Shown here piece by piece: positions 3 to 33,511 of a stretch of DNA of 64,000 nucleotides. Numbering within the stretch: position 1 is the stretch's first letter; every line of letters starts with the position of its first letter. Source of the stretch: Actinomycetota bacterium (GTDB lineage: Bacteria; Actinomycetota; Geothermincolia; Fen-727; Anoxymicrobiaceae); the NCBI GenBank assembly GCA_018831265.1, contig JAHJCO010000041.1:33700-97699 (forward strand), given 5' to 3'. The position numbers and the translations under genes are program-made. The notes beneath the pieces were generated by a model. The model had not been told where the DNA came from. It saw nothing but the letters and a program-made list of their open reading frames with translations, and ran no database searches.

Positions 3-254
3 TCCCAGGCCGGACTGAACGGACTCTTCTTCGAGGATGCGCAGGACAGGTGCACCAAAGCATGGTACTACATCGACATCGACGGGCCTTACACTGTCGA
101 TAACTTGTTGTACGGGTTGTATGACCATTTGAATCATGTGCCGACGTGCGTCTGGTCTGAGACGGGATACGAAGGGGGATACAAGAAATGGCAGGAAGCT
201 ATCCCGGACACACAAGTAATGGACCCGGAAAAGGTACTTCCACGGTATCCATGA
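3..254 (+). CDS. 3' end of an upstream gene (5' truncated by the window edge), hypothetical protein
   Basis: Frame 3 is open from the window edge to TGA at 252-254 (...WYYIDIDGPYTVDNLLYGLYDHL...KVLPRYP*). The stop overlaps the next start as ATGA. No recognisable family. Confidence 0.35.
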   Translation, partial: SQAGLNGLFFEDAQDRCTKAWYYIDIDGPYTVDNLLYGLYDHLNHVPTCVWSETGYEGGYKKWQEAIPDTQVMDPEKVLPRYP

Positions 255-18369: not shown

Positions 18370-18557
18370 GTCACTCCCCGCCCGAGCCGATAACAGATGA
18401 GTCGTGTGGCTATTCTCTTCCCACCCGGGGGACAACGCAAGGCCGCCGGCCCTTGTGCTACACAGGCAGCCATTAGCGTTAGAATGGTGCAAAAGGGTCA
18501 GGCACTTTTGCACGAGTCGAGGAACAGCCCCTGGAAGAAGACGGGAGGGTCCCTGCG

Positions 18558-20831
18558 ATGAGGACGAGCAGATTCGTACTGATAGGCGTTACTGTCTGCG
18601 CACTGGCGATGCCCGCGAGCGCGGCGGCGGTCGCCCAGCCCGTGATCCAGGGGTGGGTCGAACAGGTCTCCGGGGTTACGCACAGGCTGCAGTCCGTCGG
18701 CGCGGTCAGCCAGGATGTGGCATGGGCGGTGGGCACCAACGATACCATCCTCAAGACGACGGACGGCTCGACCTGGCAGGCGCAGGCCTCCGGGACCACC
18801 GGTGAGGACTTCGCCTGCGTCGACGCCCTGGACGCCAGCAACGCCTGGATCGTGGGCGATGGGGGCACGGTGCTGCGCACCACCAACGGGACCGCCTGGA
18901 ACCCGCCGCCGGCGCCGGTGCCGACGGGCACCAAGAACCTGAGGGGCGTGAAGATGCTCAGCGCCACCACGGTCTGGATAGTGGGCTACGACGGGACCAT
19001 CCTGAAGACGACCGACGGCGGTACCGTCTGGGACAACCAGAGTGTAGCGGGAAAGAGCCTGTGGAGCATAGATGCCACCGACTCGAACCACGCCTTCGCG
19101 GTCGGAGACGAGGGCAGGGTCGTCAGGACCATCAACGGCGGGGGCACCTGGTACGAGCGCGACCCGGGGACGACGAGTAAGCTGCGGGGAGTGGTGATGA
19201 CCGACTCCAACACCGCCTGGGCGGTCGGGTACAACGGGACCATCGTGAAGACCACCAACAGCGGGACCAACTGGACGACGCAGCCCAGCCCGACCGACGA
19301 CATCCTCTTCGACATAAGCGCGGCGGGCTCGAACACGGCATGGACGGTCGGGTACAACGATTTCAGCAGCCTGGGCGGGTTCATACTCCAGACGGGGAAC
19401 GGGGGAAACGGCTGGTTCAAGCAGCCCGCCCCCCCGGTCGGCGACCTGTACGGCGTGTCCGCCGTGGACGCCAACACCGCCTGGGCGGTGGGGGCCGGCG
19501 GAACGATCCTAAAGACCGAGAACGGGGGCGAGTCACTGACCACCTGGTACCTGGCGGAGGGATCCTCCGACTGGGGCTTCGAGACCTTCATCGCCATCGA
19601 GAACCCCAACACGGTGCCGGTCACCGCGGAGGTGACCTACCAGACCAGGGACGGCGAGCAGACACGCCCGGACCTGCCGCTCGCCGCGCAGTCCCAGGTG
19701 GTCATCGATCCCAGGGGCGACGTGGGTGCGACCGACTTTTCGACCAGGGTCGAGTGTAAGGAAGGCTATACCATCGCGGTGGACAGGCGCATGATGTGGA
19801 CCGGCCCTGGCGCCGGCTGCCAGGAGTCCCACAGCTCGGTGGGGGTGACCGCCCCCGACACGACCTGGTTCCTCCCCGAGGGTTCCTCCAAGTGGGGTTT
19901 CGAGTGCTGGCTCCTCGTTCAGAACCCCAACGGCGCCCAGGCGAACTGCGAGGTCACCTACATGATAGAAGGCGAAGGGCCTCAGGTGATCGCGCATACT
20001 GTACCGGCGAACTCGAGGGCTTCTTTCGACATGTCACAGGACATCGGCGCGAAGGACGCCTCGATCCGCGTGGACTCGGACCTGCCGGTGATCCCCGAGA
20101 GGGCGATGTACCGGTACAACCGGCGCGAGGGCCACGAATCCATCGGGACCATCAACCCTTCGATGGACTACTACCTGGCCGAGGGGTGCACTTCCTACGG
20201 TTTCACGTCCTTCATCCTGGTGCAGAACCCCCAGGCGACGGCCACCGATGTCACTGTGACGTACATGACCGGCGCGGGGCCCGTGGACATGCCCGTCTTC
20301 AGGATGGAGCCCAACACCAGGCGGACCATAAACGTGAACGCCGAGGCGGTGCTCCCCGATCCCAACTTCTCGACCCGGGTCCACGGCACGCAGCCCATAA
20401 TCGCCGAGCGGGCCATGTACTGGGACCGCGGGTACGGCGAGGCCTGTCACGACTCAATAGGCATGCCCGCCCCGGACTACGTGTTCTACCTGCCGGACGG
20501 GGATTCCAGCCCACAGTTCGAGACCTGGACGCTCATCCAGAACCCGAACCCCGTGGATGCCCAGGTGATCGTCTCGTACTTCAGGCCCAACGGGCAGGGA
20601 AACGTGACGAAGATGGAGACGATCCCCGCCAACAGCCGGAGGACCTACGAGATGGGAGCGCACTCGGGTGCCGCCGGCCGCGCGGCGGTGATGGTCAGCA
20701 GCGACCCCGAAGCGGGCCGCCCGGTGATGGTCGAGCGCTCCATGTACTGGCCCAGGGAGAGCGTGAACCCCTCGCTGTGCAGGGGCGCCGGCACGGACAC
20801 GATCGGCGGTTCTTCGAGCTTCCAACCGTAG
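18558..20831 (+). CDS. secreted protein: 7-bladed BNR/Ycf48-like beta-propeller + 4 tandem 'WYLAEG...QNP...ERAMY' modules
   Basis: Signal peptide MRTSRFVLIGVTVCALAMPASAAAVA. Seven WAVG..GTILKTTDGG.TW blades. The same ~110-aa module as genes 251-3019, 21031-23712 and 33512-35851. Confidence 0.8.
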   Translation: MRTSRFVLIGVTVCALAMPASAAAVAQPVIQGWVEQVSGVTHRLQSVGAVSQDVAWAVGTNDTILKTTDGSTWQAQASGTTGEDFACVDALDASNAWIVGDGGTVLRTTNGTAWNPPPAPVPTGTKNLRGVKMLSATTVWIVGYDGTILKTTDGGTVWDNQSVAGKSLWSIDATDSNHAFAVGDEGRVVRTINGGGTWYERDPGTTSKLRGVVMTDSNTAWAVGYNGTIVKTTNSGTNWTTQPSPTDDILFDISAAGSNTAWTVGYNDFSSLGGFILQTGNGGNGWFKQPAPPVGDLYGVSAVDANTAWAVGAGGTILKTENGGESLTTWYLAEGSSDWGFETFIAIENPNTVPVTAEVTYQTRDGEQTRPDLPLAAQSQVVIDPRGDVGATDFSTRVECKEGYTIAVDRRMMWTGPGAGCQESHSSVGVTAPDTTWFLPEGSSKWGFECWLLVQNPNGAQANCEVTYMIEGEGPQVIAHTVPANSRASFDMSQDIGAKDASIRVDSDLPVIPERAMYRYNRREGHESIGTINPSMDYYLAEGCTSYGFTSFILVQNPQATATDVTVTYMTGAGPVDMPVFRMEPNTRRTINVNAEAVLPDPNFSTRVHGTQPIIAERAMYWDRGYGEACHDSIGMPAPDYVFYLPDGDSSPQFETWTLIQNPNPVDAQVIVSYFRPNGQGNVTKMETIPANSRRTYEMGAHSGAAGRAAVMVSSDPEAGRPVMVERSMYWPRESVNPSLCRGAGTDTIGGSSSFQP

Positions 20832-20854: not shown

Positions 20855-20950
20855 TCGGGGTCAGGCACGATTCAAGTCACAAGCTGATTGAGCCCGGCCT
20901 CTCAGGCCGGGATCTGACTCAGTTTGGGGTCAGGCACCATTCAATTCACT
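20855..20950. repeat. composite intergenic repeat: GGGGTCAGGCACGATTCAAGTCA - GATTGAGCCCGGCCTCTCAGGCCGGGA (hairpin) - GGGGTCAGGCACCATTCAATTCA
   Basis: Units recur at 27567-27650, 28003-28045 (reverse complement), 42748-42800, 46640-46665 and 23706-23760 (variant), always intergenic. Confidence 0.75.
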
Positions 20951-21030
20951 CGTAAAGAATCGGGCACCGGGGTCGTCTACCGGTTAAAGGACGCACCAGC
21001 TCGAACCGAATAACTGGTAGAGGGCCGAAA

Positions 21031-23712
21031 ATGAAGGCTGGAACAGTGGCGGTGGCGCGGATAGCGCTCCTCTTCGTCGTCCTGGCGGTGATGGGGACGG
21101 TGCCCGCGCGCGCGGCAGGCAGTACGGGCGGGGATGCGCAGACCTACTACGTGTCCCCGTCCGGCCTCGACTCCAATCCGGGGACGCTCGACAAGCCCTT
21201 CAAGACACCTGGTTACGCCTCAAAGCAGATCCAGGCGGGCGATACCCTCATCATCCAGGGCGGCCGGTACGTGCTCTCCACCTTCTACGACGACATGATC
21301 ACCCCCCCGACCGGGACCGCTACCGCGCCGATAATCATCAAGGGGGAGGAAGGAAACCGCCCCGTGCTCGCCGGGCGCGACAACCTCTTCTCGGCGGTGG
21401 ATATCGGGGGGACCAGCTACATAACCATCGAGAACCTGGAGATAACCTCCGACAACGGGGCGCTGTTCCGGGGAGGTATCGCCGGGTCGAGCGGGCCGGT
21501 CGATCACCTGACGCTGAAAGATCTCTATATCCACCATATAGACGAGGGAGCGATGGACTTCGCGGACCTCTCGGCCGCGATCATCCAGGGCTGCGTGATG
21601 TCGTACTGCGGGTTCGGCTGCCTGGGCGGGCCCGTGGGCCAGCAGGGGGGATGGCGCGACGTCACCGTGCGCGGCTGCACTCTCTCCTACTCGGGGCACT
21701 ACTACCAGGGCGGCCCGGGGCCGAGCCCCTACGACCGGCCGGACGGGTTCGGGGTCGAGCCCTCCGAGGGGCCCATTGAGATCGTGGACACGGTCGCCGA
21801 GCACAACAGGGGCGACGGGCTGGACTCCAAGTGCAGGAACACCCATATCCACGAGTGCGTGGTCGCGAACAACTCCTGCGACGGGGTGAAGCTCTGGGGC
21901 GACGGCAGCCGGGTCGAGAACACGCTCGTCTACGGCACGGGCGACGGAGTGGGCGGCGCCTCTCCCTGGGCGGGGCTGGTCATCGGCACCGAGCAGGAGG
22001 GCGCGGACTTCGAGATAGTGAACTGCGCCATTGCCGACAACCCCGAGCGGGAGGCGTACCCGATGTACGTCGAGTACGGGGGGGCGGCCAACATCAGCGT
22101 CCTGTTCCGCAACAACATCGTCGCCGACGGCTACGGGGCGCCGTACTTCGCGCCCGAGGCCGACCTCACGCTCGACCACTGCATCCTCTACAGCCCGGAC
22201 CACCCCGACAACTCGCTGGAGGCGAACGGGAAGACCTACAGCGCCGACGAGCTGGAGGCCGGGGCGGTCGGGGAGGGAGTCCTGTGCGACGACCCGAAGT
22301 TCCTGCAGCCTGCCTGGGGCTCGGCCGGTGATTACCACCTGGAGGCGGGAAGCCCGGCAATCGACTCCGGGTCGTCGGACGGCGCTCCGGCCATCGACCT
22401 GGACGGTGCGGCCCGACCGTTCGGCGCGGGGTACGACATCGGCCCCTACGAGTACGGGGCTTTGAGGCCGGTCACGGGAGAGAGGACCTGGGGGACCGGC
22501 GCTCCGGGGGTCACGCAGCCCGGGGTCACCTGGTACCTGGCCGAGGGCTGCACCGCCGGAGGGTTCGAGACCTGGGTCCTGGTGCAGAATCCGAATAGCA
22601 CGCCCGCAACCGTGGACATCACCTACATGACCGGGGAGGGGGAGAAGCCCGGGCCCCGCGTCACCCTCCCGCCGGACTCGAGGGCGACGGTGAACGCGGC
22701 CGACACGGTGGGACAGGCCTGGGAGGTCTCGGCGAAGGCGTCCTCCAACGTACCGGTGGTTGTGGAGCGCGCCATGTACTGGGGCGGCCGGACCGGGGCC
22801 CACGGCTCGACGGGGGTGAGCGGGCCGGCAACGGACTGGTACCTGGCCGAGGGCTGTACCGCCGGCGGCTTCGAGACCTGGGTGCTCCTGCAGAACCCCG
22901 GAAGCGTCGAAGCCAACGCACAGCTCACTTTCATGACGGATACCGGACAGGTAACGGGCCCTTTAGTGGTATTGCCCCCGGGCACGCGCCGGACGGTGAA
23001 CGTCGCGGAGACGGTGGGCGAGGCCTGGAACGTTTCCACCGGGGTTGACTCCGATGAGCCGGTCGTCGCCGAGCGGGCGATGTACTGGAACGGGCGCGCG
23101 GGCGGCCACGACTCGGTGGGGGTGACGGCGGCCTCGAAGACCTGGTACCTCGCCGAGGGCTCCACCGGGGGCACGTTCGAGACCTGGCTTCTGCTGCAGA
23201 ACCCGGGAGACGTGCAGGCAAACGCGCAGGTGACCTTCATGACGGACGCCGGGCCGGTCACCGGCCCTTCGGTGGGGTTGCCCCCGGGCACGCGCCGGAC
23301 GGTCAACGTCGCGGAGACGGTGGGGGCGCAGTGGAGCGTATCCACCGAGGTGTCGTCAGACCAGCAGGTCGTCGCGGAGCGGGCGGTCTACTGGGACGGG
23401 CGGCGTGAGGGCCACGACTCGGCCGGGGTAACCTCGCGAGGCAAGACCTGGTATGTAGCCGAGGGCTGCACGGGCCAGGGTTTTCAGACCTGGATACTGG
23501 TACAGAACCCGGGCACGCAGAACGCCACGGTGAGCCTGGAGTACATGACGGGTAGCCGACAGGTGACCGGTCCCACGCTCATCCTCGGCCCCCGGACTCG
23601 CCGCACGGTGAACGTCGCCGACACCTGCCCTGGCGAATGGAGCGTCTCCACGAAGGTCACCTCCAGCCACGACATCACCGTCGAACGCGCCGTGTACGGC
23701 GTATCCCCTTGA
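21031..23712 (+). CDS. secreted protein: right-handed parallel beta-helix (pectate-lyase/DUF1565-like) head + 4 tandem 'WYLAEG...QNP...ERAMY' modules
   Basis: Signal peptide; YYVSPSGLDSNPGTLDKPFKT... and NNSCDGVKL... coils indicate a beta-helix fold, followed by four clear module repeats. Confidence 0.8.
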   Translation: MKAGTVAVARIALLFVVLAVMGTVPARAAGSTGGDAQTYYVSPSGLDSNPGTLDKPFKTPGYASKQIQAGDTLIIQGGRYVLSTFYDDMITPPTGTATAPIIIKGEEGNRPVLAGRDNLFSAVDIGGTSYITIENLEITSDNGALFRGGIAGSSGPVDHLTLKDLYIHHIDEGAMDFADLSAAIIQGCVMSYCGFGCLGGPVGQQGGWRDVTVRGCTLSYSGHYYQGGPGPSPYDRPDGFGVEPSEGPIEIVDTVAEHNRGDGLDSKCRNTHIHECVVANNSCDGVKLWGDGSRVENTLVYGTGDGVGGASPWAGLVIGTEQEGADFEIVNCAIADNPEREAYPMYVEYGGAANISVLFRNNIVADGYGAPYFAPEADLTLDHCILYSPDHPDNSLEANGKTYSADELEAGAVGEGVLCDDPKFLQPAWGSAGDYHLEAGSPAIDSGSSDGAPAIDLDGAARPFGAGYDIGPYEYGALRPVTGERTWGTGAPGVTQPGVTWYLAEGCTAGGFETWVLVQNPNSTPATVDITYMTGEGEKPGPRVTLPPDSRATVNAADTVGQAWEVSAKASSNVPVVVERAMYWGGRTGAHGSTGVSGPATDWYLAEGCTAGGFETWVLLQNPGSVEANAQLTFMTDTGQVTGPLVVLPPGTRRTVNVAETVGEAWNVSTGVDSDEPVVAERAMYWNGRAGGHDSVGVTAASKTWYLAEGSTGGTFETWLLLQNPGDVQANAQVTFMTDAGPVTGPSVGLPPGTRRTVNVAETVGAQWSVSTEVSSDQQVVAERAVYWDGRREGHDSAGVTSRGKTWYVAEGCTGQGFQTWILVQNPGTQNATVSLEYMTGSRQVTGPTLILGPRTRRTVNVADTCPGEWSVSTKVTSSHDITVERAVYGVSP

Positions 23713-23887
23713 GCCCATGCTTGAGCCCGGGCTCTAAGCCCGGGATTCATTCGGGGATTGGGCGCGGACTTCAGTCCGCTGACGGATCGCCTACCGGGAC
23801 TGAAGTCCCGGCCCAACCTCACTGCTGATTGGGAGCGGACTTCAGTCCGCTGACGGATCGGGCTTGGGCGCGGACTTCAGTCCGCGA
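23706..23887. repeat. GAGCCCGGGCTCTAAGCCCGGG hairpin + 4 GGACTTCAGTCC/GGACTGAAGTCC units (same element as 3052-3168)
   Basis: Read directly. Shared spacer CCTCACTGCTGATTGGG. Confidence 0.75.
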
Positions 23888-23928
23888 ATAATGGTCCGAT
23901 TCGAACAGGACTTAATCCCTGGCTCGGA

Positions 23929-24855
23929 TCAGTCCCACGCCTCGGGCATCACGGTCGGCCTGCCGTCTCTAACCTCGTGGTACGGCTGGCGCATGCCTTT
24001 CTCCAGCCTCTCCAGGCTCTCGACCCGCTCCTGCACGCCTGCCATCGAGGGCGGCACGAACATCATCACAGGTCGTACTCTGAACGGCGTCACCCTTTTC
24101 TTTTTCACCAACCACGAGACCTGGACAATCGCCTCTATGAGCGCACGTGGGTTCCCGGTGACCCTAGCGGCCAGGGTATCGGCGAGGACCCCCGGACGAT
24201 TCATGTACTCGTTGGCACCGAGCGCGAACCTGTGCCTGATCTCGTCGGAGAGCACCGGACCCCCCTCCACGGAGCCGCGCCTCTGCAGGGGGACGGCCGG
24301 TTTGGGCATGAGGATCAGCCTGGCGAGGATCGCCGCCATCACCGCCTCGACCTGCTGGTCGGATAGGTCCTGCTCCAGGAGCGTCGGGGTCACCGCCAGG
24401 CCGCGGCCCCCGGGTAGCACGTACGCGTTGGGCGACGGCAGGTCCATCACCTCCATGGGCGGGGCCTGTATCCCAAGCCCGATGCAGACCGCGTCGAGTG
24501 CCTCCCTGAATACGTGGCACCTTCTCGTGTTGTATGCCCTGGCGCGCCGACGCCCCCTTGCCGTGAAGCGTGATGCGTTGAGCTGTCGCCGGAGCATTAC
24601 TGCCAGCGCGAATCCACCTGCCACAGCCAGCGCTATCCCCAGGATGAGCCGGGCAACCCCTGCGGCGGCAGAGGGTTGCGGACCGACACGACTAACCGAC
24701 CCGAATGTGGAGATGAGCATCAGGATGCCCGCGACGGAAAGTATGAGGCTGAAGATCACGAGGATGTACCGGGCTCCATCCTTCGCCGGGTCGGCCGCGG
24801 CCCCCCGTGGCAATGGCTCGGCGGGCGGACGAGACCCGGTCGGATGCTCAGTCAC
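23929..24855 (-). CDS. membrane protein, catalytically degenerate M48/HtpX-like peptidase homolog (HEXXH replaced)
   Basis: N-terminal TM helices. ...SPNAYVLPGGRGLAVTPTLLEQDLSDQQVEAVMAAILARL aligns with the M48 zinc-binding region PNAFA..G..AVAVTtGLL..L..dELeAVLAHELGH, but His/Glu/His become Ala/Ile/Arg. The C-terminus PPSMAGVQERVESLERL resembles the M48 C-terminal helix. Confidence 0.5.
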   Translation of the reverse strand: MTEHPTGSRPPAEPLPRGAAADPAKDGARYILVIFSLILSVAGILMLISTFGSVSRVGPQPSAAAGVARLILGIALAVAGGFALAVMLRRQLNASRFTARGRRRARAYNTRRCHVFREALDAVCIGLGIQAPPMEVMDLPSPNAYVLPGGRGLAVTPTLLEQDLSDQQVEAVMAAILARLILMPKPAVPLQRRGSVEGGPVLSDEIRHRFALGANEYMNRPGVLADTLAARVTGNPRALIEAIVQVSWLVKKKRVTPFRVRPVMMFVPPSMAGVQERVESLERLEKGMRQPYHEVRDGRPTVMPEAWD

Positions 24856-24859
24856 GCAG

Positions 24860-25519
24860 TCACTCCCAGTACTCGGGTGTCAGGGAAGGCTTGCCCTCCC
24901 TGACCTCGTGGTGAGGCTCACGCACGCCTCTCTCCAGTCGCTCCAGGTTCTCGATCCTCTCCCGGATGCCGGCAAGCGAGAATGGAACGAACATCATCGG
25001 CGGCGATAGTCCAAAGGGGATCGTAACCCTGTACTCGCCCAGGATCACCGAGATTCTATTGATCGCCGAAATCAAGGCAAGCGGCTGACTGGTGATTCTT
25101 GCCGCCAGGGTGTCGGCGACGATGTCGGTCCGCTCCGAGTAGGGCCAATCGTGAAGGTCGTACTTCTTCCTGACCTCCGTGGGTGTCATTGAGTCGCTGT
25201 CAGGTGAACCTCGCGGCCTCAGCGGGTTCTTCCTGTCGGCTTCGAGGACGATCTTAGCCACCCCATCAGCCATGACCGCTTCCACCTCCAGATGCGAAAG
25301 GTCCTGCATGAGGAGCAGGGGTGTCACGGCAAGGCCTGCTCCGCGAGGCATCACGAAAGAGTTTGGAGCCGCGAGGTCTGCGACTACGAGAGGCGGGGTC
25401 TCTATACCGACCCCGATGCTCACACCGTCTAGGGCATCCCTGAAGACGTGATATCGACTTCGATCATAATCATCCGAGGACCTCAGGAACCGCCTTCCAC
25501 CCGTAAGGATTCGTTTCAC
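24860..25519 (-). CDS. tandem paralog of 23929-24855 (degenerate M48-like, no N-terminal TM region)
   Basis: Clearly alignable to its neighbour (RYHVFRDALDGVSIGVGIETPP...MMFVPFSLAGIRERIENLERLERG). The active-site stretch reads LEVEAVMADGVAKI, with no HEXXH. Confidence 0.5.
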   Translation of the reverse strand: MKRILTGGRRFLRSSDDYDRSRYHVFRDALDGVSIGVGIETPPLVVADLAAPNSFVMPRGAGLAVTPLLLMQDLSHLEVEAVMADGVAKIVLEADRKNPLRPRGSPDSDSMTPTEVRKKYDLHDWPYSERTDIVADTLAARITSQPLALISAINRISVILGEYRVTIPFGLSPPMMFVPFSLAGIRERIENLERLERGVREPHHEVREGKPSLTPEYWE

Positions 25520-26523
25520 AAGATATCCCGGGCGGCTTCCAGGATGCGGGCGACGCTGGGGAGGGCCTCGTCCTCCAGGCGGCGGGCGTAGGGGATGGTG
25601 CCCTCGGTGCAGATCCGGGCGAAGCGGGCGTCCGTGCCTGACTCGGCGATTACGGCGGCGACCTCGCCAGAGAGGCCGAAAGCGCGGTAGTCCTCGTCAA
25701 CGACGACTACGCGGCGGCAGCGGCGCGCCGCCTCTGAGATCACGTCGGTGTCGAGCGGCCGGACGGAGCGCAGGTCTAGGACCGTGGACCGCACCCCTTC
25801 GGAGCCCAGGGCCGCGGCGGCCTCCAGGCAGCGGTGGACGCTCAGGCCGAGCGATATGAAGGCGATGTCGGAGCCGTTCCTGAGTGTCGCGGCCACGCCG
25901 AGTGGGACGGGCTGGACAGGCAGCGGGACGTCTCCATTGGCGCCGGCCGCCGGGACGTCGAACTCCACTCCTTCACGGTTTCCTATGCCCATGTAGTCGA
26001 GCCAGTAGTCGGCCAGCATCTTGTGCTCCAGGTAGACCACCGGACCATCTTCCTGAACTGCGGCGAGCATCAATCCTGCTGCATCCGCCGGGTTGGACGG
26101 CACGACCACGGAAAGCCCCGGGACACCCGCGAGCATCCTTCAGAGGCTCTGCTCGTGCTGTCCTCCGTCGCCGTACCCCGCGCCGCACGAGGAGCGCACC
26201 ACCATGGGGACCTTGAACCCGCCACCCGAGAACGTCTCTATCTTGGCCGCCTGGTTCAGCAGCGCGTCGAAGCACACCCCGATGAAGTCCACCAGCATTA
26301 TCTCGACGACCGGCCGCAGGCCCATCATCGCCGCGCCGACAGCGGTGCCCAGGAAGGCGGACTCGCTGATGGGGGTGTTTCGCACCCGCTTGCCGCCGAA
26401 CCGGACCAGCAGGTCGTTTCGCAGCAGTTCGACGTCCTCGCCGAATACGATGACCGTCTCGTCGGCCTCCATCGCGGCCGCGAGCCCGGCTGAGATCGCC
26501 TCGGCGAATGTCATTTCAGGCAT
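25516..26523 (-). pseudogene. 2-oxoacid (pyruvate/acetoin) dehydrogenase E1 component beta subunit, interrupted by one in-frame TGA (at 26140-26142)
   Basis: ORFs 26140..26523 (transketolase pyrimidine-binding part, ...GGQHEQSL*) and 25516..26136 (RMLAGVPGL..., transketolase C-terminal domain) share a frame. Together they give a normal ~334-aa E1 beta; the TGA falls where Glu is usual (QSL-E-A..PGLKVV). Confidence 0.7.
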
Positions 26524-27538
26524 CGGGCCACGCTCCCAGCGCCTCCAGGGCGTTCGCGACCGCCTCGTTGACCTCCGAGCGCGCCTGCTCCTCGAGCTTC
26601 ACCCTGGCCTCGACCTCCAACTGCCTGCCGGCAAGGTCCACCGGGTCGCGCCTGGTGTAGGTATCGATTCCGAGCCCGGCCAGGGTCGCGCCGATACCGC
26701 CGAGGCTCGCGGCACGAGTGGTCCAGCCTGCGCCCGGCTGCTTGACGGCCGCGCCGAGCAGAGGCTCGCTCATCTGCTTCATCTGCCCCACCGGGTCCTC
26801 GTAGATGCGAAGGACGGGGTCGCCCAGGAAGTGGCCGTCCAGGTGCACGCAACGGGCGTGGATGAAGAAAGGTCCCTCCCCGGCACGCGCGCGGGCGACC
26901 GGCCCCTCCGAGGCGCCCCAGACCTTCTCTACCCTCAGACCGTTCACCTTGACACCTGGAACCCCCAGCGAACGGGCCCGGTCCGCCAGGTTGCCCGCCG
27001 TCACCGAGCCCGAGCGGGTGGTTATCGACCAGCGGTTGTCCTTGCAGACAACGATTAGCGGAAGCTTCCAGACCGCGGCCAGGTTGAGTGCCTCCATGGC
27101 CATACCCTGGTTCATCGCGCCCTCACCGAGGAACGCGACGGCCACCTTGCCGGGACGAAGGTGCTGGGCCGCCAGCGCGAACCCCGCGCCGAGCGGGACG
27201 GACGAGCCCACTATCCCGGATGATGCGGCCAGGCGCGCCGGGCAGAACAGGTGCATGTGGCCGCCCATGCCGCCGCAGAGGCCCTTCGAGTCGCCAAGTA
27301 GCTCGAGGACGATACGGGTCATGTCCACGTTGCGCCCCACGAACGCGGGCGTAGAGCGGTGGTCTAGGGAGACGGAGTCGCCGTCGGTGAGGTGGTCGAG
27401 GACCCCGGCGATGACCGCCTCCTCGCCGGTGCCCAGGTGCATCTCTCCGGATATCAGCCCGCGCCGCCACAGGCTGGCTATCGCCAGCTCGAAGGCGCGC
27501 ATGCGGGCCATCTGGAAGTAGAGCTGCTCGAGGTCCAT
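26516..27538 (-). CDS. 2-oxoacid dehydrogenase E1 component alpha subunit (ThDP-binding)
   Basis: MDLEQLYFQMARMRAFE...GTGEEAV...GxGAxNQG. The start is set at MDLEQ (about 27538, +/-1 nt by my counting) because the ORF-table extension to 27754 runs through an intergenic repeat. Overlaps the E1 beta start (ATGCCTGA). Confidence 0.8.
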   Translation of the reverse strand: MDLEQLYFQMARMRAFELAIASLWRRGLISGEMHLGTGEEAVIAGVLDHLTDGDSVSLDHRSTPAFVGRNVDMTRIVLELLGDSKGLCGGMGGHMHLFCPARLAASSGIVGSSVPLGAGFALAAQHLRPGKVAVAFLGEGAMNQGMAMEALNLAAVWKLPLIVVCKDNRWSITTRSGSVTAGNLADRARSLGVPGVKVNGLRVEKVWGASEGPVARARAGEGPFFIHARCVHLDGHFLGDPVLRIYEDPVGQMKQMSEPLLGAAVKQPGAGWTTRAASLGGIGATLAGLGIDTYTRRDPVDLAGRQLEVEARVKLEEQARSEVNEAVANALEALGAWPDA

Positions 27539-27566
27539 AACGGTACTATACGGCGCGAGAGGGTGA

Positions 27567-27650
27567 CTGGGATAGGGGTCAGGCGGGAGTCTATTCATAG
27601 ACTCCGTGATTCGACTCCCGCCTGACCCCGGTTTGAGTCGGACGAACGGA
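27567..27650. repeat. 17-bp inverted repeat GGGGTCAGGCGGGAGTC ... GACTCCCGCCTGACCCC flanking 21 bp (member of the GGGGTCAGGC repeat family)
   Basis: Read directly; intergenic between E1 alpha and the DUF2769 gene. Confidence 0.7.
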
Positions 27651-27678
27651 TCATGCCCGAACCGTCGGCGTCTACGGG

Positions 27679-27900
27679 CTACTGCGCCGCTCCCATCTCG
27701 CAGTAGAAGGAGTCTCCCAGGCTGAACTCGCTGTATATCGGACAGGTCGCGCATACACAGCTGACCTTCTCGAACTCACAGGTCGCCTTGCCCTTGGCAC
27801 AGAAGAACCCTTCCATCTTCTCCTTCATGCACTGGTTGTGGGTCGGACACGTCATGCAGATGCACTTCATCATGTTTTCCTGGGTGTCAGGTACGGGCAT
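27679..27900 (-). CDS. small cysteine-rich protein, DUF2769-like
   Basis: 73 aa with 12 Cys in the pattern MMKCICMTCP...C..E..FC..GK..C......C.CATCP...E....FYCE, which matches my recollection of DUF2769. Confidence 0.55.
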   Translation of the reverse strand: MPVPDTQENMMKCICMTCPTHNQCMKEKMEGFFCAKGKATCEFEKVSCVCATCPIYSEFSLGDSFYCEMGAAQ

Positions 27901-28041
27901 GTGTCACCTCCGTTAACGGGCTTCCAGGGTAAGGAAGCGGGTAACACTAGACTACGTCCGAAGCGTCATGATTCCTGCGCGCCGGCCTCAGGTTCGATCC
28001 ACCGAGATTGTGAATTGAATCGTGCCTGACCCCGGTTTTAG

Positions 28042-28836
28042 TCAGGCGACGTCCCTGCGCTGGAAGGCCCACAGGGCTCCCGCGAAGCAGGCCAGGCCGA
28101 ACAGGCAGGGCACGAGCACGTTCCTGGCGGGCAGGCTGGACTTCTGCAGCACCTCGAGCGGCTGGTAGTACTTGAAGATGCTGACCCACCCGATGAACTC
28201 TACGCTCTTCCAGTAGGACGCCGCGAAGTTCACGAGGTAGAAGAGCAGGGTCAGCCCCGCCGCTGCCATAGCCGCCGCGCCCGGGTCCTTGAGCAGGGCC
28301 GAGAACAGCATCGAGTAGCCGGCGATGGCGATCATCAGGGAGACTGCGGGCAGGATAAAGATAGCGAAGCGCCCGTAGTCGGAGCCAACCCCGAAGACGG
28401 CCGCCCAGCCGATGAGGCTACCTACCGTCACCAGCACGAACCCCACGATCGCGGCGAGCAGGAGGCCGGCCTGCACGCTCATCAGCCGCCATCGCTGGAC
28501 CGGCTGCGATAGTAGGAACTCCAGGGTCCCGTCCTTGAGCTCGCCTGCGACCATGCGCCTTGCCATGGCGATGACGAACGCCGCGACCAGTATCACCCAC
28601 ATGAGGCTCAGGAACTGTAGCGTTACGTAGTTGTTGAACGTGTCCAGGTTGAAGCTGCTGACCCCGAAGAGCTTGACGAAAGCCTTCGGCATCTGTTTCG
28701 CGTAGTCCGTCTTCATCTTGCCGACGGTCGGGTAGATGGCCGCTAGCAGCAGAGAGTACAGGACGATCACGCCGGCGAATATCGCGGCCATCCGCCAGCG
28801 TTCCTTGAGCGTCTTGAGGACGAGGCTCCAGGTCAA
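28042..28836 (-). CDS. ABC-2 type transporter permease
   Basis: 264 aa, 6 TM helices. Translationally coupled (4-nt overlap) to the upstream ATPase. Confidence 0.7.
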   Translation of the reverse strand: MTWSLVLKTLKERWRMAAIFAGVIVLYSLLLAAIYPTVGKMKTDYAKQMPKAFVKLFGVSSFNLDTFNNYVTLQFLSLMWVILVAAFVIAMARRMVAGELKDGTLEFLLSQPVQRWRLMSVQAGLLLAAIVGFVLVTVGSLIGWAAVFGVGSDYGRFAIFILPAVSLMIAIAGYSMLFSALLKDPGAAAMAAAGLTLLFYLVNFAASYWKSVEFIGWVSIFKYYQPLEVLQKSSLPARNVLVPCLFGLACFAGALWAFQRRDVA

Positions 28837-29732
28837 CGCGTCTCGCCCCCCTCCCGGCCGTAGAACTCCAGGAAGGCGTCCTCCAGGCTCGCGTGCCCTA
28901 TACTCAGGTCGAGCAGCTCCCTGCCGGTCAGGACCCCGAGCAGCGAGTTGAGGTCACCGCGGAACTTGAGCTGTATCCGGTTGCCGGCGCGCTCGAAGCC
29001 GCTGACCCCCTCGACGCGGTCGATGCCGTCCGGCGGGTCGGCGGCGTAGATGACCTCCACGTTGCGCAGGTGCTTGCCGCGGAGGTCCTCGATGCGCTCG
29101 GTACCCACCAGGGTACCCGCCCTGATGATGCCGACCCGGTCGGCCAGCCGCTCGACCTCGGGGAGGTTGTGTGACGAGAACAGGACCGTGGTGCCGCCCT
29201 CACGCCGCTCGTTGAGTATCTCGTAGAGGACGTGCTGGGTGATCGGGTCGAGCCCGTTGGTGGGCTCGTCCATTATAAGCAGCGGGGGGTCCTTCATGAG
29301 GGCGAGAACGATGGCCAGCTTCTGCTTCATGCCCCGTGAGTAGCCCTCCACTTTGCGGTCAAGGTCCAGCTCCAGGCGCGCGGCCAGCGCGCGGCCGGAA
29401 GCCTCCCGGCCGCCGTCGAAGCTGTCCACAAAGCGCACCAACTCTTCCCCGGTCATGCGCGGGTAGAGGGCAGGCTCGCCGGGCAGGTACCCCACCAGCC
29501 GCTTGACATCGACGCTCTTCTGCCAGGCGTCCAATCCCTTGACCGAGGCGCTGCCGCGGTTGGGCTTGAGCATCCCCATGATGAGGCGGATGGTGGTGGT
29601 CTTGCCCGCGCCGTTGGGGCCGAGGAAGCCGAACAGCTCGCCCTGGAAGACCTCCAGGTCGAGGTCCTGGACCCCGACGACCTTCCCGTAGTATTTGGTC
29701 AGGCCCTCGGTATGTATGACTGTCTCTGGCAT
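28833..29732 (-). CDS. ABC transporter ATP-binding protein
   Basis: Walker A GPNGAGKTT, signature YSRGMKQKLAIV and Walker B LLIMDEPTNGLD. Start set to ATG 29732 (MPETVIHTEGL...); the ORF table extends further upstream. Confidence 0.9.
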   Translation of the reverse strand: MPETVIHTEGLTKYYGKVVGVQDLDLEVFQGELFGFLGPNGAGKTTTIRLIMGMLKPNRGSASVKGLDAWQKSVDVKRLVGYLPGEPALYPRMTGEELVRFVDSFDGGREASGRALAARLELDLDRKVEGYSRGMKQKLAIVLALMKDPPLLIMDEPTNGLDPITQHVLYEILNERREGGTTVLFSSHNLPEVERLADRVGIIRAGTLVGTERIEDLRGKHLRNVEVIYAADPPDGIDRVEGVSGFERAGNRIQLKFRGDLNSLLGVLTGRELLDLSIGHASLEDAFLEFYGREGGETR

Positions 29733-29824
29733 GCCCCTGAGCCTATCAGATTTTCGCATCGGGGTCAGACGCCGATGCGGAAGGCGGTCTCGAAACGTCA
29801 TACTGTTGGTGGAGGTAGAGAAGA

Positions 29825-30730
29825 GTGATTGTATCGGCGAGCTACCGCACCGACATACCGGCCTACTACGGCGAGTGGTTCATTAACAGGCTGGCCGCCG
29901 GGTACTGCATGGTCGCCAACCCGTACGGCGGGCGGCCGTACCGGGTGCCCCTGCGAAGGGAGGAAGGTGTCGAGGCGTTCGTCTTCTGGACCAGGGACCC
30001 GGAGCCGTTCATCGACTGCCTGCGGGTCGTGGCCCGTGAGCACGGTTTCCCGTTCGTCGTCCAATACACAATCATCCCGTACCCCGAGGCGCTGGACCGT
30101 GAGGTCACCGACCCCGAGCGCGCCGCCGCCTGCGTGCACCTCCTGCGCGACGAGTACGGACCGAGGGCCATGGTCTGGCGCTACGATCCCATCGTCTTCT
30201 CGTCGCTCACCCCTCCGGAGTGGCACCTGGAGCGCTTCGAGACCCTGGCCTCTTCGCTGGAGGGCGCAACAGACGAGGTGGTCGTCTCGTTCGCGCAGGT
30301 GTACCGCAAGACCGAGCGCAACCTGGACGCGGCCGCCCGCGAGCACGGCTTCACCTGGGAGGACCCGCCCGACGATGCGAAGCGGCGATTTCTCCTCGAG
30401 CTTTCCAGCACCGCCTCCGGACACGGGATGCGCCTCAGTATCTGCGCCCAGCCCCGGCTACTGGCCCAGGGAGTCGAACCCGCCTCATGTATAAACCCTG
30501 GGCGGCTCGGGGACGTGGCCCGCCACCTTGGCATCGAGCCCGCGACCGTTCGCGCCAGGCGAAAGCCTCACCGCGAGGACTGCGGCTGCTGGGAGAGCCG
30601 CGACATAGGCGCCTACCACACCTGCCCCCACGGCTGCACCTACTGCTACGCGGTGAACGACCGGGAGCGGGCTGCCCACCGTTTCGCCGCCCACGACCCG
30701 GAAGGCGAGTTCCTCCTGCCTCCAGGCTGA
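29825..30730 (+). CDS. DUF1848-family protein (C-terminal Cys cluster)
   Basis: The N-terminus MIVSASYRTDIPAYYGEWFINRL matches my recollection of DUF1848 N-termini. C-terminal CGCW...CPHGCTYCYA. GTG start with GGAGG 9 nt upstream. Confidence 0.55.
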   Translation: MIVSASYRTDIPAYYGEWFINRLAAGYCMVANPYGGRPYRVPLRREEGVEAFVFWTRDPEPFIDCLRVVAREHGFPFVVQYTIIPYPEALDREVTDPERAAACVHLLRDEYGPRAMVWRYDPIVFSSLTPPEWHLERFETLASSLEGATDEVVVSFAQVYRKTERNLDAAAREHGFTWEDPPDDAKRRFLLELSSTASGHGMRLSICAQPRLLAQGVEPASCINPGRLGDVARHLGIEPATVRARRKPHREDCGCWESRDIGAYHTCPHGCTYCYAVNDRERAAHRFAAHDPEGEFLLPPG

Positions 30731-30838
30731 TTCAACATCAATAGCACCACCGATGTGGCCGCTGATTTGACCTTGACTAATAATAACGTTAATATGTCAT
30801 TATTATTGCATAATATTGACATGCTAAGGATAGTGATA

Positions 30839-32131
30839 ATGGACCTAATCACGTTCAATCCCTGGTGGAGGGACGGCAGGGTGTCTGCGGCTCTCGTTGG
30901 CAGGAAACGGCGGTTGCTGGCCGGGCTCTCGGAATATATGGGCCTGCGGCAGATGCTCATCCTCTACGGCCTGCGGCGGGTCGGTAAGACGACCACCATG
31001 TTCCAGTTGATCGATGGCCTCCTGGAGCGCGAAGAGGCAGATCCGTACCACATCCTCTACTTCTCTTTCGACGAAGAGAAGGCCGATATCAAGGAGATTC
31101 TGGCGGCTTACGAGAGGCAGATCATCAGAGAAGACCTGCCCCGCGACAGGAAGACCTACCTGTTCCTCGACGAGGTGCAGAAGCTCGACGACTGGCCGGA
31201 CAAGGTCAAAGTCATCTATGACATGTACCCCAGCGTGAAGCTCTGCCTCTCGGGTTCGGCCGCCATAGCCATCACCAAAGGGGTGAAGGAAAGCCTGGCG
31301 GGAAGGTTCTTCGAGACCATGATCGAACCCCTCGACTTCGACGAATACCTGGAGTTCTCAGGGGATGACATCGACCGCGAGCAGGAGAGGGTCTTTGAGC
31401 TGCGAATACGCCGCAGGTTCGAGGAGTTCATGGCGAACGGGGGCTTCATCGAGGCGCTGGAGCTTTCCGATTCCCACAGAAACAGGTACTTCAAGGAGGG
31501 CCTTCTAGAAAGAGTCATCTACCGCGACCTGCCGGACAGCTTCCATATCAACGCGCCCGACCTTCTGTACAGGTGCATGCGCGTCTGCGCCGAGAAGCCG
31601 GGTATGCTCCTCGACTACAGTAGCCTGGGGCGGGACCTCGGTCACGACCAGCGGACCATTGCAGCATACTTCTCTCACCTCGAATACGCTCTGCTGGCGA
31701 ACAAGCTCTACAATTACTCGCCCAATCTCCTCACGAGCGAGAAGAAGATGAAGAAGGTCTATCTATCGAGTACGGCGTTCAGCGTAGCGCTCTCCCCGCC
31801 GGTCGGCCGCCCGGAGCTTATCGAGCAGTTCTTCGCGAACGTCCTCAAGGCCCGGTTCTTCTCGAGGACCCCCCAGAGGGACGAGGTGGACCTGGTCCTG
31901 TCAGGCGATGGGGAGGTGGTCCCGATCGAGGTCAAGATCAGGTCCGAAGTGAAGAAGCGGGACGCCACGCCCCTGTTCAAGTTCCTGCACAGGTACAAAG
32001 CCGCCAGGGGGTACATGATCTCGGACGGTACCGAGACCGTGTTCTCGGATGGCGAGAAGGAGGTAGAGGTCATTCCCTACTGGATGTACTGGACGTTGAT
32101 GGACAGACTTGGTGGTATTCTCGACAGGTGA
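30839..32131 (+). CDS. AAA+ ATPase (AAA_14-like) fused to a DUF4143/PD-(D/E)xK-like C-terminal domain
   Basis: Walker A GLRRVGKTT and Walker B LFLDEVQ. C-terminal EVDLVL...VVPIEVK looks like a D...ExK nuclease motif. Start is ATG 30839 with AAGGA upstream. The gene and its upstream region are markedly AT-rich relative to the window. Confidence 0.8.
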   Translation: MDLITFNPWWRDGRVSAALVGRKRRLLAGLSEYMGLRQMLILYGLRRVGKTTTMFQLIDGLLEREEADPYHILYFSFDEEKADIKEILAAYERQIIREDLPRDRKTYLFLDEVQKLDDWPDKVKVIYDMYPSVKLCLSGSAAIAITKGVKESLAGRFFETMIEPLDFDEYLEFSGDDIDREQERVFELRIRRRFEEFMANGGFIEALELSDSHRNRYFKEGLLERVIYRDLPDSFHINAPDLLYRCMRVCAEKPGMLLDYSSLGRDLGHDQRTIAAYFSHLEYALLANKLYNYSPNLLTSEKKMKKVYLSSTAFSVALSPPVGRPELIEQFFANVLKARFFSRTPQRDEVDLVLSGDGEVVPIEVKIRSEVKKRDATPLFKFLHRYKAARGYMISDGTETVFSDGEKEVEVIPYWMYWTLMDRLGGILDR

Positions 32132-32275
32132 CAGGACATCGGTTATTCGATGACGGTTTTTTCAGGAGGGCAGAACCCTTGGACTCTGTTCAACCGGCTA
32201 GCTTGTTATCGGGTCTTTCGTAACTGAACCGAGCTCGGTGAATACCGTTGGTAGTCTGCCGCAGAATGTAGCCAG

Positions 32276-32842
32276 CTACTGTGCAGGTCTGCGTATCACT
32301 GCCCTCTCGGCATATTCCACTGTAGGCTCGGCCTCAAATTCCTCGATAGCCTGGTCCTCGTCCTTGCCTTCTGTCAGATGTACCGAGACGCCAAACCTAT
32401 CAGCACCAGTTCCAATGTTCCAGATACATGTCACAGAAGCCTGGTGCCTCGCCACGACCTCGCGAGCGGTCTCTTCAGATACGCCTTCTTTGAATTGGAC
32501 GATCACTTCCCCCTCCTGAAAATCACCTTCCGGCGTCGTGGTCGGAGGCGCAGGGGTCGTCTCAGGTGTCGTAGGAACCGTATCTACAGTTGGGGGAACG
32601 TCTTCTGAGGCCTGGGGCTCTTCCGCCTGGCCGCTAGTTGACTCGTCGCCCTGCGCGCTATTACTGGTGGAAGGGAGAGAAGTTGGGAGAGACGGCAACG
32701 AGAAAGATAGGCCGCCTCCGGATTCCTTCTTGTCGGAAGGCTTGACCTGGCTGCAGCCACCGATGATTAAGCTAATCGCCAAGAGCGCGAATGCAATGCA
32801 CACACATATGACCGAAGTAGACTTCTTTTGCCACATCCTCAT
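32276..32842 (-). CDS. lipoprotein with low-complexity Pro/Thr linker and a C-terminal peptidase-inhibitor-I9 (subtilisin propeptide)-like domain
   Basis: Lipobox LIIGGCS. C-terminus GEVIVQFKEGVSEETAREVVARHQASV...DEDQAIEEFEAEPTVEYAE resembles I9 prodomains. Lower GC than surrounding genes. Confidence 0.5.
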   Translation of the reverse strand: MRMWQKKSTSVICVCIAFALLAISLIIGGCSQVKPSDKKESGGGLSFSLPSLPTSLPSTSNSAQGDESTSGQAEEPQASEDVPPTVDTVPTTPETTPAPPTTTPEGDFQEGEVIVQFKEGVSEETAREVVARHQASVTCIWNIGTGADRFGVSVHLTEGKDEDQAIEEFEAEPTVEYAERAVIRRPAQ

Positions 32843-33061
32843 TGAGGCATTCTCCCCGTTTGCTCGAGGTTACTATAAAGCACGTTACAGGCCCGGTCCA
32901 ACTCGTACCACGCTTGTCGGCCCACGACCCTGAGTGAGTTCATCCTGCCTCCTCCTTGGCAGGCGTGACCTGGTCTCTTTGATTCATTTGCTTCCTTCCG
33001 TGTTACAGTTGCTTGATATGCTTGATCAGTTGCTTCAGCGAGGAAGGATTGGACGAGAGCG

Positions 33062-33256
33062 TTGAAGGTGCGTGATATCATCAGGATACTTGAAAAGGAC
33101 GGGTGGTTTCTGGTGACGACCAGGGGAAGTCATCGACAGTACAAGCATCAGATGAAGCCGGGCAGGGTTACGATAGCCGGTCACTTGAACGACGATCTGT
33201 CTCCGGGCACATTGGACAGCATATACAAGCAGGCGGGCTTGAAGGAGAGCCGATAG
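33062..33256 (+). CDS. hicA: HicA-family toxin (mRNA interferase)
   Basis: 64 aa; ...ILEKDGWFLVTTRGSHRQYKH...GRVTIAGH...LSPGTLDSIYKQAGL fits HicA/YcfA. Confidence 0.8.
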   Translation: MKVRDIIRILEKDGWFLVTTRGSHRQYKHQMKPGRVTIAGHLNDDLSPGTLDSIYKQAGLKESR

Positions 33257-33485: not shown

Positions 33486-33511
33486 TGTCCCATTGACCAC
33501 CCGGAGGTCTC

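What the first reader, a model, noticed from the sequence alone, without database searches (positions are those of the whole stretch)
25516..26523. E1 beta subunit gene interrupted by exactly one in-frame TGA at a normally Glu position
The two adjacent same-frame ORFs reconstitute a full-length transketolase-like E1 beta (pyrimidine-binding + C-terminal domains) if the TGA at 26140-26142 is read through: ...GGQHEQSL-TGA-RMLAGVPGLSVVVPS versus the usual ...SQSLE(A/G)...PGLKVV. The break is inside a domain, so this is not a natural split gene. Options are a genuine nonsense mutation (GAA to TGA; a fresh pseudogene next to an intact E1 alpha), a sequencing or assembly error, or programmed read-through. 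Genome-wide TGA reassignment is unlikely because other long genes end in TGA and are not fragmented.
Basis: seen in the sequence. Interest (0 to 1): 0.6.

Follow-up and report, generated by a model that had tools for sequence, protein, structure and literature searches.

The report
Fresh nonsense mutation in E1-beta gene
A dehydrogenase E1 beta-subunit gene in a deep-groundwater actinobacterium carries a real, recent two-base mutation that turns an invariant tryptophan codon into a stop, so this is an ordinary young pseudogene and not recoding or an assembly error.

Summary
On the minus strand, one TGA (26140-26142) interrupts an otherwise full-length E1 beta gene (26523..25516), inside the pyrimidine-binding domain.

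One detail is wrong. In this clade the position is Trp, not Glu: 120 of the 120 closest homologs have W, and all 120 have G at the next position. Two relatives (92% and 82% identical) read CTC TGG GGG where the window reads CTC TGA AGG. That is a tandem GG>AA change giving W128stop plus G129R.

- **Not a one-off assembly error:** the same allele sits on 100%-identical DNA in an NCBI MAG, where no protein is annotated for this gene, and in an independent Logan assembly of SRR2544004 (Äspö deep groundwater biofilm).
- **Not recoding:**
  - TGA is the normal stop here: 24 of 42 genes end in it, including this gene and E1 alpha.
  - No other in-frame TGA occurs against 271 TGG codons.
  - There is no SECIS-like structure downstream.
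  - No relative keeps the stop.
- **Recent:** dN/dS against the nearest relative is about 0.12 on both sides of the stop, the same as E1 alpha.

Best reading: a recent loss-of-function allele. Weak tRNA-Trp read-through or re-initiation at the ATG one codon downstream cannot be excluded, but any read-through product would still carry G129R. Interest is low.

The parts
26516..27538 (-). Intact E1 alpha gene (340 aa, ThDP-binding E1_dh domain). Its TGA stop (26516-26518) overlaps the E1 beta start by 8 nt.
   Evidence: Pfam E1_dh E 5e-49. The 340-aa product is identical to NCBI MBU1670863.1, MBU1944304.1 and MBU2688289.1. It is 93% identical to the L001 ortholog, dN/dS 0.12.
26143..26523 (-). 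E1 beta, codons 1-127 (N-terminal two thirds of the pyrimidine-binding domain). Includes the ISE54 glutamate and His123 of the GDGGQHEQ loop.
   Evidence: Transket_pyr profile positions 3-122/174, E 7e-20. 95% aa identity to L001, dN/dS 0.10. Aligned to solved E1 beta chains.
26140..26142 (-). Premature in-frame TGA at the position of invariant Trp128.
   Evidence: W in 120/120 homologs. TGG in L001 and L009.
26139..26140 (-). The two substituted bases. On the coding strand GG>AA (CC>TT on the + strand), giving TGG GGG > TGA AGG, i.e. W128stop and G129R.
   Evidence: DNA alignment of window, L006 and L001; L009. G in 120/120 homologs at the second codon.
26134..26136 (-). In-frame ATG (Met130) one codon after the stop. 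It is the only candidate site for termination-reinitiation. It is an ordinary internal Met/Leu/Trp position in homologs, not a conserved start.
   Evidence: ORF 25516..26136 starts at an ATG. Homologs have L/W/M at this column. No gene with this product is on record.
25516..26139 (-). E1 beta, codons 129-335 plus the normal TGA stop (25516-25518): the rest of the pyrimidine-binding domain and the Transketolase_C domain.
   Evidence: Transket_pyr 128-171 and Transketolase_C 2-124/124. The C-terminus aligns with the ends of P0001 and P0002. dN/dS 0.12.

Best explanation
This is a real and evolutionarily recent loss-of-function allele. In one strain of an uncultured Actinomycetota bacterium from deep groundwater, a tandem two-base substitution hit two adjacent invariant codons of the E1 beta gene: coding strand GG>AA, TGG GGG > TGA AGG. 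Translation by a standard-code ribosome ends after residue 127, five residues past the active-site His123. The resulting fragment lacks the last third of the pyrimidine-binding domain and the whole C-terminal domain. The alpha2-beta2 ThDP enzyme therefore cannot form normally, and the intact, translationally coupled E1 alpha is left without a partner.

Shown: the stop, the ancestral state, its presence in independent assemblies, normal use of TGA as a stop, and the absence of recoding signals.

Inferred: that the protein is non-functional, and that the event is recent.
For: 1. **Ancestral state.** The two nearest relatives read CTC TGG GGG at this spot (L001, 92% aa; L009, 82% aa). All 120 best homologs have W-G there. 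The window reads CTC TGA AGG.
2. **Same allele elsewhere.**
   - It is on 100%-identical DNA in NCBI MAG GCA_018824995.1 (L006).
   - It is also in the Logan assembly of SRR2544004 (L002), an Äspö Hard Rock Laboratory biofilm metagenome (PMC5364579).
   - In three NCBI MAGs the E1 alpha accession is followed immediately by that of the 187-aa protein downstream of E1 beta, so E1 beta got no protein record in any of them.
3. **TGA is a stop here.** 24 of 42 Pfam-supported genes end in TGA. There are 271 TGG codons and no other in-frame TGA. E1 beta's own terminal TGA aligns with the homologs' C-termini.
4. **No recoding signal.**
   - The 91 nt around and downstream of the UGA fold no better than shuffles (z +0.77).
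   - There is no Rfam hit and no tRNA in the window.
5. **The neighbouring invariant Gly129 is changed to Arg by the same event.** This is what random damage predicts, not a selected read-through site.
6. **The break is in the domain core.** W128 opens a short helix (128-132) between strands 108-111 and 138-140 in a confident model of the ortholog (pLDDT 89.5).
7. **Recent.** dN/dS against L001 is 0.10 for the N piece, 0.12 for the C piece and 0.12 for E1 alpha. No further lesions have accumulated.
Against: - No reads were available, so the allele frequency in the population is unknown.
- The low dN/dS downstream of the stop is also what continued function would give. All copies of the allele are 100% identical, so selection after the mutation cannot be measured.
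- UGA is the leakiest stop and is misread by tRNA-Trp, which would restore the native residue. An ATG sits one codon downstream.
- One Logan contig (L003, SRR10598176) ends exactly one base before the substituted bases. This may mean a second allele exists in that sample.
- Whether the cell has a second E1 beta cannot be seen from 64 kb.
Confidence: 0.8

Rival explanations
1. Leaky hypomorph. The UGA sits at a Trp codon and is followed by A. Near-cognate tRNA-Trp(CCA), or a 4-bp anticodon-stem or UCA variant encoded elsewhere in the genome, reads it at a low rate and inserts the native Trp. A little full-length E1 beta, carrying only G129R, is still made and suffices for a very slow-growing subsurface organism.
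For: - The stop is at an invariant Trp position, so read-through by tRNA-Trp restores the wild-type residue.
- Background UGA read-through by endogenous tRNA-Trp(CCA), enhanced by 4-bp-stem variants, was shown in E. coli (PMC13092985).
- The allele is found in several assemblies.
- There are no further lesions downstream; dN/dS is 0.12.
Against: - Gly129, invariant in 120/120 homologs, is Arg in any read-through product.
- No relative keeps the stop.
- No stimulatory structure lies downstream.
- The low dN/dS is fully explained by a recent event.
- tRNA genes cannot be checked in this window.
Confidence: 0.08
2. Sequencing or assembly artefact. The true sequence is TGGGGG and the gene is intact.
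For: - The change lies in a G5 run (TGGGGGA).
- All sequences carrying it appear to come from one strain. The one sample whose origin could be traced is from Äspö groundwater.
- Contig L003 breaks exactly at the site.
Against: - The same two-base change appears in separately produced assemblies: an NCBI MAG and the Logan assembly of SRR2544004.
- By accession adjacency it is implied in three NCBI MAGs.
- No intact version of this strain's protein exists among about 5.8 billion clustered proteins.
- A consensus G>A double substitution is not a typical homopolymer-length error.
Confidence: 0.05
3. Functional two-piece protein. Ribosomes terminating at UGA re-initiate at the AUG three nucleotides downstream (UGA AGG AUG). 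This gives a 127-aa and a 206-aa polypeptide that assemble into an active beta subunit.
For: - An in-frame ATG lies at 26136-26134, one codon after the stop.
- The substitution also creates an AAGGA purine motif.
- Split transketolase-superfamily enzymes exist in the PDB (6yaj).
Against: - The known split lies between domains. Here the cut is inside the Pyr-domain core at the start of a helix.
- Invariant W128 and G129 would be lost altogether.
- The AAGGA motif overlaps the ATG, so there is no spacer.
- No relative is split.
- The Logan gene call chose a GTG 10 codons further on, not this ATG.
Confidence: 0.04
4. Recoded UGA: selenocysteine insertion, or a UGA=Trp/Gly genetic code.
For: Only that the in-frame codon is UGA and aligns with Trp.
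Against: - 24 of 42 genes, including this one and E1 alpha, terminate at TGA where their homologs end.
- There are 271 TGG codons and no other in-frame TGA.
- Homologs have Trp, not Cys/Sec.
- No SECIS-like hairpin is present.
- No Rfam hit was found.
- The window is about 65% G+C. From general knowledge, the known UGA-reassigned lineages are mostly low-G+C.
Confidence: 0.01

Closest known systems
Ordinary bacterial pseudogene created by a nonsense mutation (the kind NCBI's PGAP pipeline flags as 'internal stop')
   Same: - A single premature stop sits in an otherwise full-length, well-conserved gene.
- Orthologs have a sense codon there.
- No protein record exists for it in the NCBI MAGs.
- No recoding signals are present.
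   Different: The lesion is a tandem double substitution hitting two adjacent invariant codons, not a single base. It is so young that no other decay is visible (dN/dS 0.12).
Heterotetrameric 2-oxoacid dehydrogenase E1 beta subunits (PDH, BCKDH and acetoin dehydrogenase E1 beta; e.g. PDB 3DUF_B, 1W85_B, 1NI4_B, 1UM9_B)
   Same: - It has Transket_pyr plus Transketolase_C architecture.
- It is translationally coupled to an E1_dh alpha subunit.
- The ISE glutamate and the loop histidine are conserved.
- phmmer E is about 5e-51 to solved E1 beta chains.
   Different: - This clade has the motif GDGGQHEQ(S/C)LWG instead of HSxSLE(G/A).
- It stands alone, with no E2 or E3 gene in the window or beside the homologs examined.
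- Here the reading frame is broken.
UGA read-through by tRNA-Trp, and UGA=Trp codes (PMC13092985)
   Same: An in-frame UGA lies exactly where homologs have Trp.
   Different: It is a single site in a genome that otherwise uses TGA as its main stop. It is not conserved in relatives, and the adjacent invariant Gly is damaged too.

Membership tests
2-oxoacid dehydrogenase E1 component, beta subunit (alpha2-beta2 type) | Transketolase pyrimidine-binding domain followed by the transketolase C-terminal domain | tested here: met
   Pfam Transket_pyr (3-122 and 128-171 across the two pieces) and Transketolase_C 2-124/124.
2-oxoacid dehydrogenase E1 component, beta subunit (alpha2-beta2 type) | Adjacent, co-oriented E1 alpha gene with the ThDP-binding E1_dh domain | tested here: met
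   E1_dh E 5e-49 at 26516-27538 (-), overlapping the beta start by 8 nt.
2-oxoacid dehydrogenase E1 component, beta subunit (alpha2-beta2 type) | Conserved ThDP-activating Glu (PISE) and active-site loop His | tested here: met
   E54 and H123 are invariant in 120 homologs. They align with the ISE/AES and HS motifs of 3DUF_B and 6CER_B. Their catalytic roles are taken from general knowledge of E1 structures, not tested here.
2-oxoacid dehydrogenase E1 component, beta subunit (alpha2-beta2 type) | Uninterrupted reading frame giving a beta chain of about 325-340 aa | tested here: not met
   TGA at codon 128. Homologs are 332-341 aa.
2-oxoacid dehydrogenase multienzyme complex (E1-E2-E3) | Lipoyl-bearing E2 acyltransferase and E3 dihydrolipoamide dehydrogenase partners | tested here: inconclusive
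   No 2-oxoacid_dh, Biotin_lipoyl or Pyr_redox_dim hit in any scanned gene of the 64-kb window or beside homologs in L001, L007, L008 and a JGI contig. The rest of the genome is not available.
Nonsense-mutation pseudogene | Premature stop where orthologs and outgroups carry a sense codon, not shared by relatives | tested here: met
   TGG GGG in L001 and L009 against TGA AGG here. W-G in 120/120 homologs.
Nonsense-mutation pseudogene | The stop is real in the organism's DNA and not an assembly error | tested here: inconclusive
   The same allele is in an NCBI MAG and in the Logan assembly of SRR2544004, and is implied in three MAGs. Reads could not be inspected.
Nonsense-mutation pseudogene | Relaxed selection or further decay after the lesion | tested here: not met
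   dN/dS is 0.12 downstream of the stop, equal to E1 alpha, and there are no other lesions. This is expected if the event is very recent, so it limits the age and does not contradict the class.
Bacterial selenoprotein gene | UGA aligning with Cys/Sec in homologs, and a SECIS hairpin immediately downstream | tested here: not met
   Homologs have Trp. The downstream fold has z +0.77. No Rfam hit.
UGA-reassigned genetic code (UGA=Trp or Gly) | Many in-frame UGAs at conserved sense positions, and UGA not used as a terminator | tested here: not met
   24 of 42 genes end in TGA. There are 271 TGG codons and no other in-frame TGA.
Programmed stop-codon read-through | Stop codon and its context conserved among orthologs | tested here: not met
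   No homolog of 60-92% identity has the stop.

The most novel reading that the evidence does not exclude
The allele is not dead. UGA-A at a Trp codon is misread by tRNA-Trp, or the ribosome restarts at the AUG one codon on. A deep-subsurface population has then carried a low-output E1 beta (W128, R129) across several samples. That would be a natural example of a nonsense allele maintained as a leaky hypomorph in an energy-starved, very slowly dividing community.
Probability: 0.08. Interest if true: 0.35.

Novelty: already known. Interest (0 to 1): 0.1.

Why it matters
It matters little beyond correct annotation. The gene should be labelled a pseudogene (internal stop, W128*), and the stop should not be taken as evidence of recoding in this lineage.

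Two small points of wider use:
- It shows that aligning only to canonical family motifs (HSQSLE) can mislead about the ancestral residue. The clade-specific alignment shows a one-step TGG>TGA route.
- The gene belongs to a widespread stand-alone E1 alpha/beta clade of unknown substrate and without a neighbouring E2. Its loss in one strain hints that the enzyme is dispensable in that habitat.

Tried and rejected
- **Selenocysteine or SECIS:** the 91 nt around and after the UGA fold no better than shuffles, and there is no Rfam hit. Rejected.
- **Suppressor or unusual tRNA in the window:** ARAGORN found no tRNA genes at all. Uninformative.
- **Code reassignment:** counting stops and TGG/TGA in 42 Pfam-supported genes rejects it.
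- **Other genes broken by a stop:** I listed every pair of same-frame open stretches of at least 100 codons each separated by a single stop. The adjacent pairs of real genes checked by Pfam or synteny are distinct genes: DUF1848 with AAA_14 at 30728, amine oxidase with FAD/Fer2 reductase at 16831, and a Fer4_20/Pyr_redox_2 protein with an unknown protein at 53201.
- **Looking for an intact allele of the same strain:**
  - An exact-pattern scan with NN at the site found only the 92% relative in GTDB representative genomes.
  - The same scan found nothing in JGI metagenomes.
  - A second protein search with the restored W-G sequence found only the fragment P0122 and the 92% relative.
  - A look-up of the 206-aa ATG-started product found nothing.
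- **Literature search:** searching the MAG and run accessions gave only the Äspö biofilm paper for SRR2544004.
- **Possible conserved RNA element:** a stretch of about 115 nt after the E1 beta stop looked strikingly conserved. It turned out to be the edge of a block of about 630 nt at 97-100% identity, in a generally mosaic identity profile. I dropped the RNA-element idea.

Full report
**What is there**

The feature lies on the minus strand. Reading 26523 down to 25516 in one frame gives 335 codons with one internal stop...GYGDGGQHEQSL*RMLAGVPGLSVVVPS.... The TGA is at window 26140-26142.

- The 127-aa upstream piece matches Pfam Transket_pyr positions 3-122 of 174.
- The downstream piece resumes at positions 128-171 of the same domain and then has a complete Transketolase_C domain.
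- The gene directly upstream (26516-27538, minus strand) is an intact 340-aa E1 alpha (E1_dh, E 5e-49). Its TGA overlaps the beta ATG by 8 nt.

In detail: one gene, one in-frame TGA, inside a domain.

**What the position normally is**

The 120 best homologs (60-92% identity) range from 332 to 383 aa, mostly about 335 aa, and all are uninterrupted. In all 120 the residue at the stop position is Trp and the next residue is Gly. The clade motif is Q-H-E-Q-(C/S)-L-W-G.

Human PDHB has Ala there. It does not apply to this clade.

- The nearest relative is L001 (GCA_043807425.1, an Actinomycetota MAG). It is 92% identical at the protein level and syntenic with window positions about 15.6-39.4 kb. 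It reads CTC TGG GGG ATG.
- The next relative is L009 (82%). It reads CTC TGG GGG CTT.
- The window reads CTC TGA AGG ATG.

The event is therefore a tandem GG>AA substitution on the coding strand (CC>TT on the + strand, bases 26139-26140). It produces W128stop and G129R together.

**Real, or an artefact?**

- Exact look-ups show the 127-aa fragment on Logan contigs from two different runs.
- The SRR2544004 contig (L002, 5.8 kb) is 100% identical to the window and carries TGAAGG. That run is a biofilm metagenome from deep groundwater at the Äspö Hard Rock Laboratory (PMC5364579).
- An NCBI MAG contig (GCA_018824995.1, L006) is also identical across the gene and carries TGAAGG. No CDS is annotated between E1 alpha and the next gene.
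- The identical E1 alpha protein has three NCBI accessions, MBU1670863, MBU1944304 and MBU2688289. In each case the adjacent accession number belongs to the 187-aa protein downstream of E1 beta. So E1 beta has no protein record in any of the three MAGs, which is what is expected for a gene treated as a pseudogene.
- No intact version of this strain's protein was found among the clustered proteins.

A one-off assembly error is thus unlikely. Only read pile-ups could settle it fully.

One oddity remains. The SRR10598176 contig (L003) ends at ...CTCTG, exactly one base before the substituted bases. This could be a graph branch caused by two alleles, or just low coverage.

**Recoding?**

- TGA is the main terminator here. 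Of 42 Pfam-supported genes, 24 end in TGA, 13 in TAG and 5 in TAA.
- Those genes contain 271 TGG codons and no other in-frame TGA.
- E1 beta's own terminal TGA and E1 alpha's TGA coincide with the ends of their homologs.
- The RNA around and downstream of the UGA folds no better than shuffled sequence (z +0.77).
- Rfam and tRNA scans of the window are empty.
- Homologs have Trp, not Cys, at the site.
- No relative conserves the stop.

Selenocysteine, code reassignment and programmed read-through all fail their defining tests.

**Age and consequence**

Against L001, dN/dS is 0.10 for the piece before the stop, 0.12 for the piece after it and 0.12 for E1 alpha. There are no further frameshifts or stops. 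The lesion is therefore young relative to the roughly 11% DNA divergence of the two lineages.

In a confident AlphaFold model of the ortholog P0001 (pLDDT 89.5), W128 opens a short helix (128-132) lying between strand 108-111 and strand 138-140 of the pyrimidine-binding domain. The cut is in the domain core, just after the GDGGQH active-site loop.

A 127-aa product would lack the rest of that domain and the whole C-terminal domain. I infer loss of function, but this is not shown.

**Residual alternatives**

- UGA is misread at a low rate by tRNA-Trp, shown for E. coli in PMC13092985. Here that would restore the native Trp.
- An ATG also lies one codon after the stop, so some re-initiation is conceivable.
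- Both routes give a protein lacking the invariant Gly129: changed to Arg by read-through, or absent together with W128 after re-initiation. Nothing in related genomes suggests selection for either.
- I give these about 8% and 4%.

**Context**

No E2 or E3 gene was found in the window or next to homologs in four other genomes. This is a stand-alone E1 alpha/beta clade of unknown substrate.

The window also encodes aldehyde:ferredoxin oxidoreductase, a prismane/CO-dehydrogenase family protein, iron-containing alcohol dehydrogenase (Fe-ADH) and ETF. This is consistent with an anaerobe.

**Verdict**

This is an ordinary, fresh nonsense pseudogene, already implicitly treated as such in the public MAG annotations. 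Interest is low.

Noticed in passing
window 20900-29900 compared with L001 7100-15700: Nucleotide identity to the sister lineage is mosaic. Blocks of 97-100% identity alternate with blocks at 60-85%. The high blocks include 25540-24910 (the whole 187/219-aa gene after E1 beta), 24414-24235, 29680-29450 and 26480-26300. This looks like recombination tracts between related populations. It explains the apparently 'conserved' stretch just after the E1 beta stop.
   Followed up: partly
window 26516-27538 and 25516-26523; L001, L007, L008, L009: This E1 alpha/beta pair belongs to a widespread clade (Actinomycetota, Acidimicrobiia, Geothermincolia, Thermoanaerobaculia and others). The clade has the motif GDGGQHEQxLWG and never has an E2 or E3 gene beside it in the loci seen. 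Neighbours vary: ABC-2 transporter, methyltransferase, amine oxidase. Substrate and partner are unknown.
   Followed up: partly
L003 (SRR10598176), equal to window 27174-26141: This 1034-nt Logan contig ends at ...CTCTG, one base before the two substituted bases. It is either a de Bruijn graph branch (both alleles present in that sample) or a coverage drop.
   Followed up: partly
window 27610-28050 and about 30731-33250: Two stretches are absent from the syntenic relative L001. One holds a 73-aa DUF2769 gene (27679-27900) between the ABC-2 permease and E1 alpha. The other holds an AAA_14/DUF4143 ATPase gene (30731-32131) followed by a lower-G+C stretch (0.58 at 32-34 kb), where L001 has a HicB-like antitoxin gene.
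   Followed up: no
L001 6201-7104, compared with window 29825-30730: The DUF1848 gene is intact in the window (301 aa, Pfam 1-262/262). In the relative L001 it is called as two overlapping ORFs (211 and 97 aa). So the sister MAG carries its own disrupted gene or an assembly frameshift.
   Followed up: no
window 161-3019, 18483-20831, 21031-23712, 33497-35851: Four large proteins (about 780-950 aa) each contain DUF5719. It is combined with beta-helix, BNR/YCF48-like or PGA_cap domains. This is a local expansion of a poorly characterised, probably cell-surface, family.
   Followed up: no
window 24860-25519 (-): The start of the gene after E1 beta is ambiguous. The Logan gene call gives 219 aa from a GTG that overlaps the E1 beta stop (GTGA). 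NCBI gives 187 aa. There is no Pfam hit. The next gene (308 aa) is named an M48 metalloprotease by NCBI but has no Pfam hit at E up to 1e-3.
   Followed up: no
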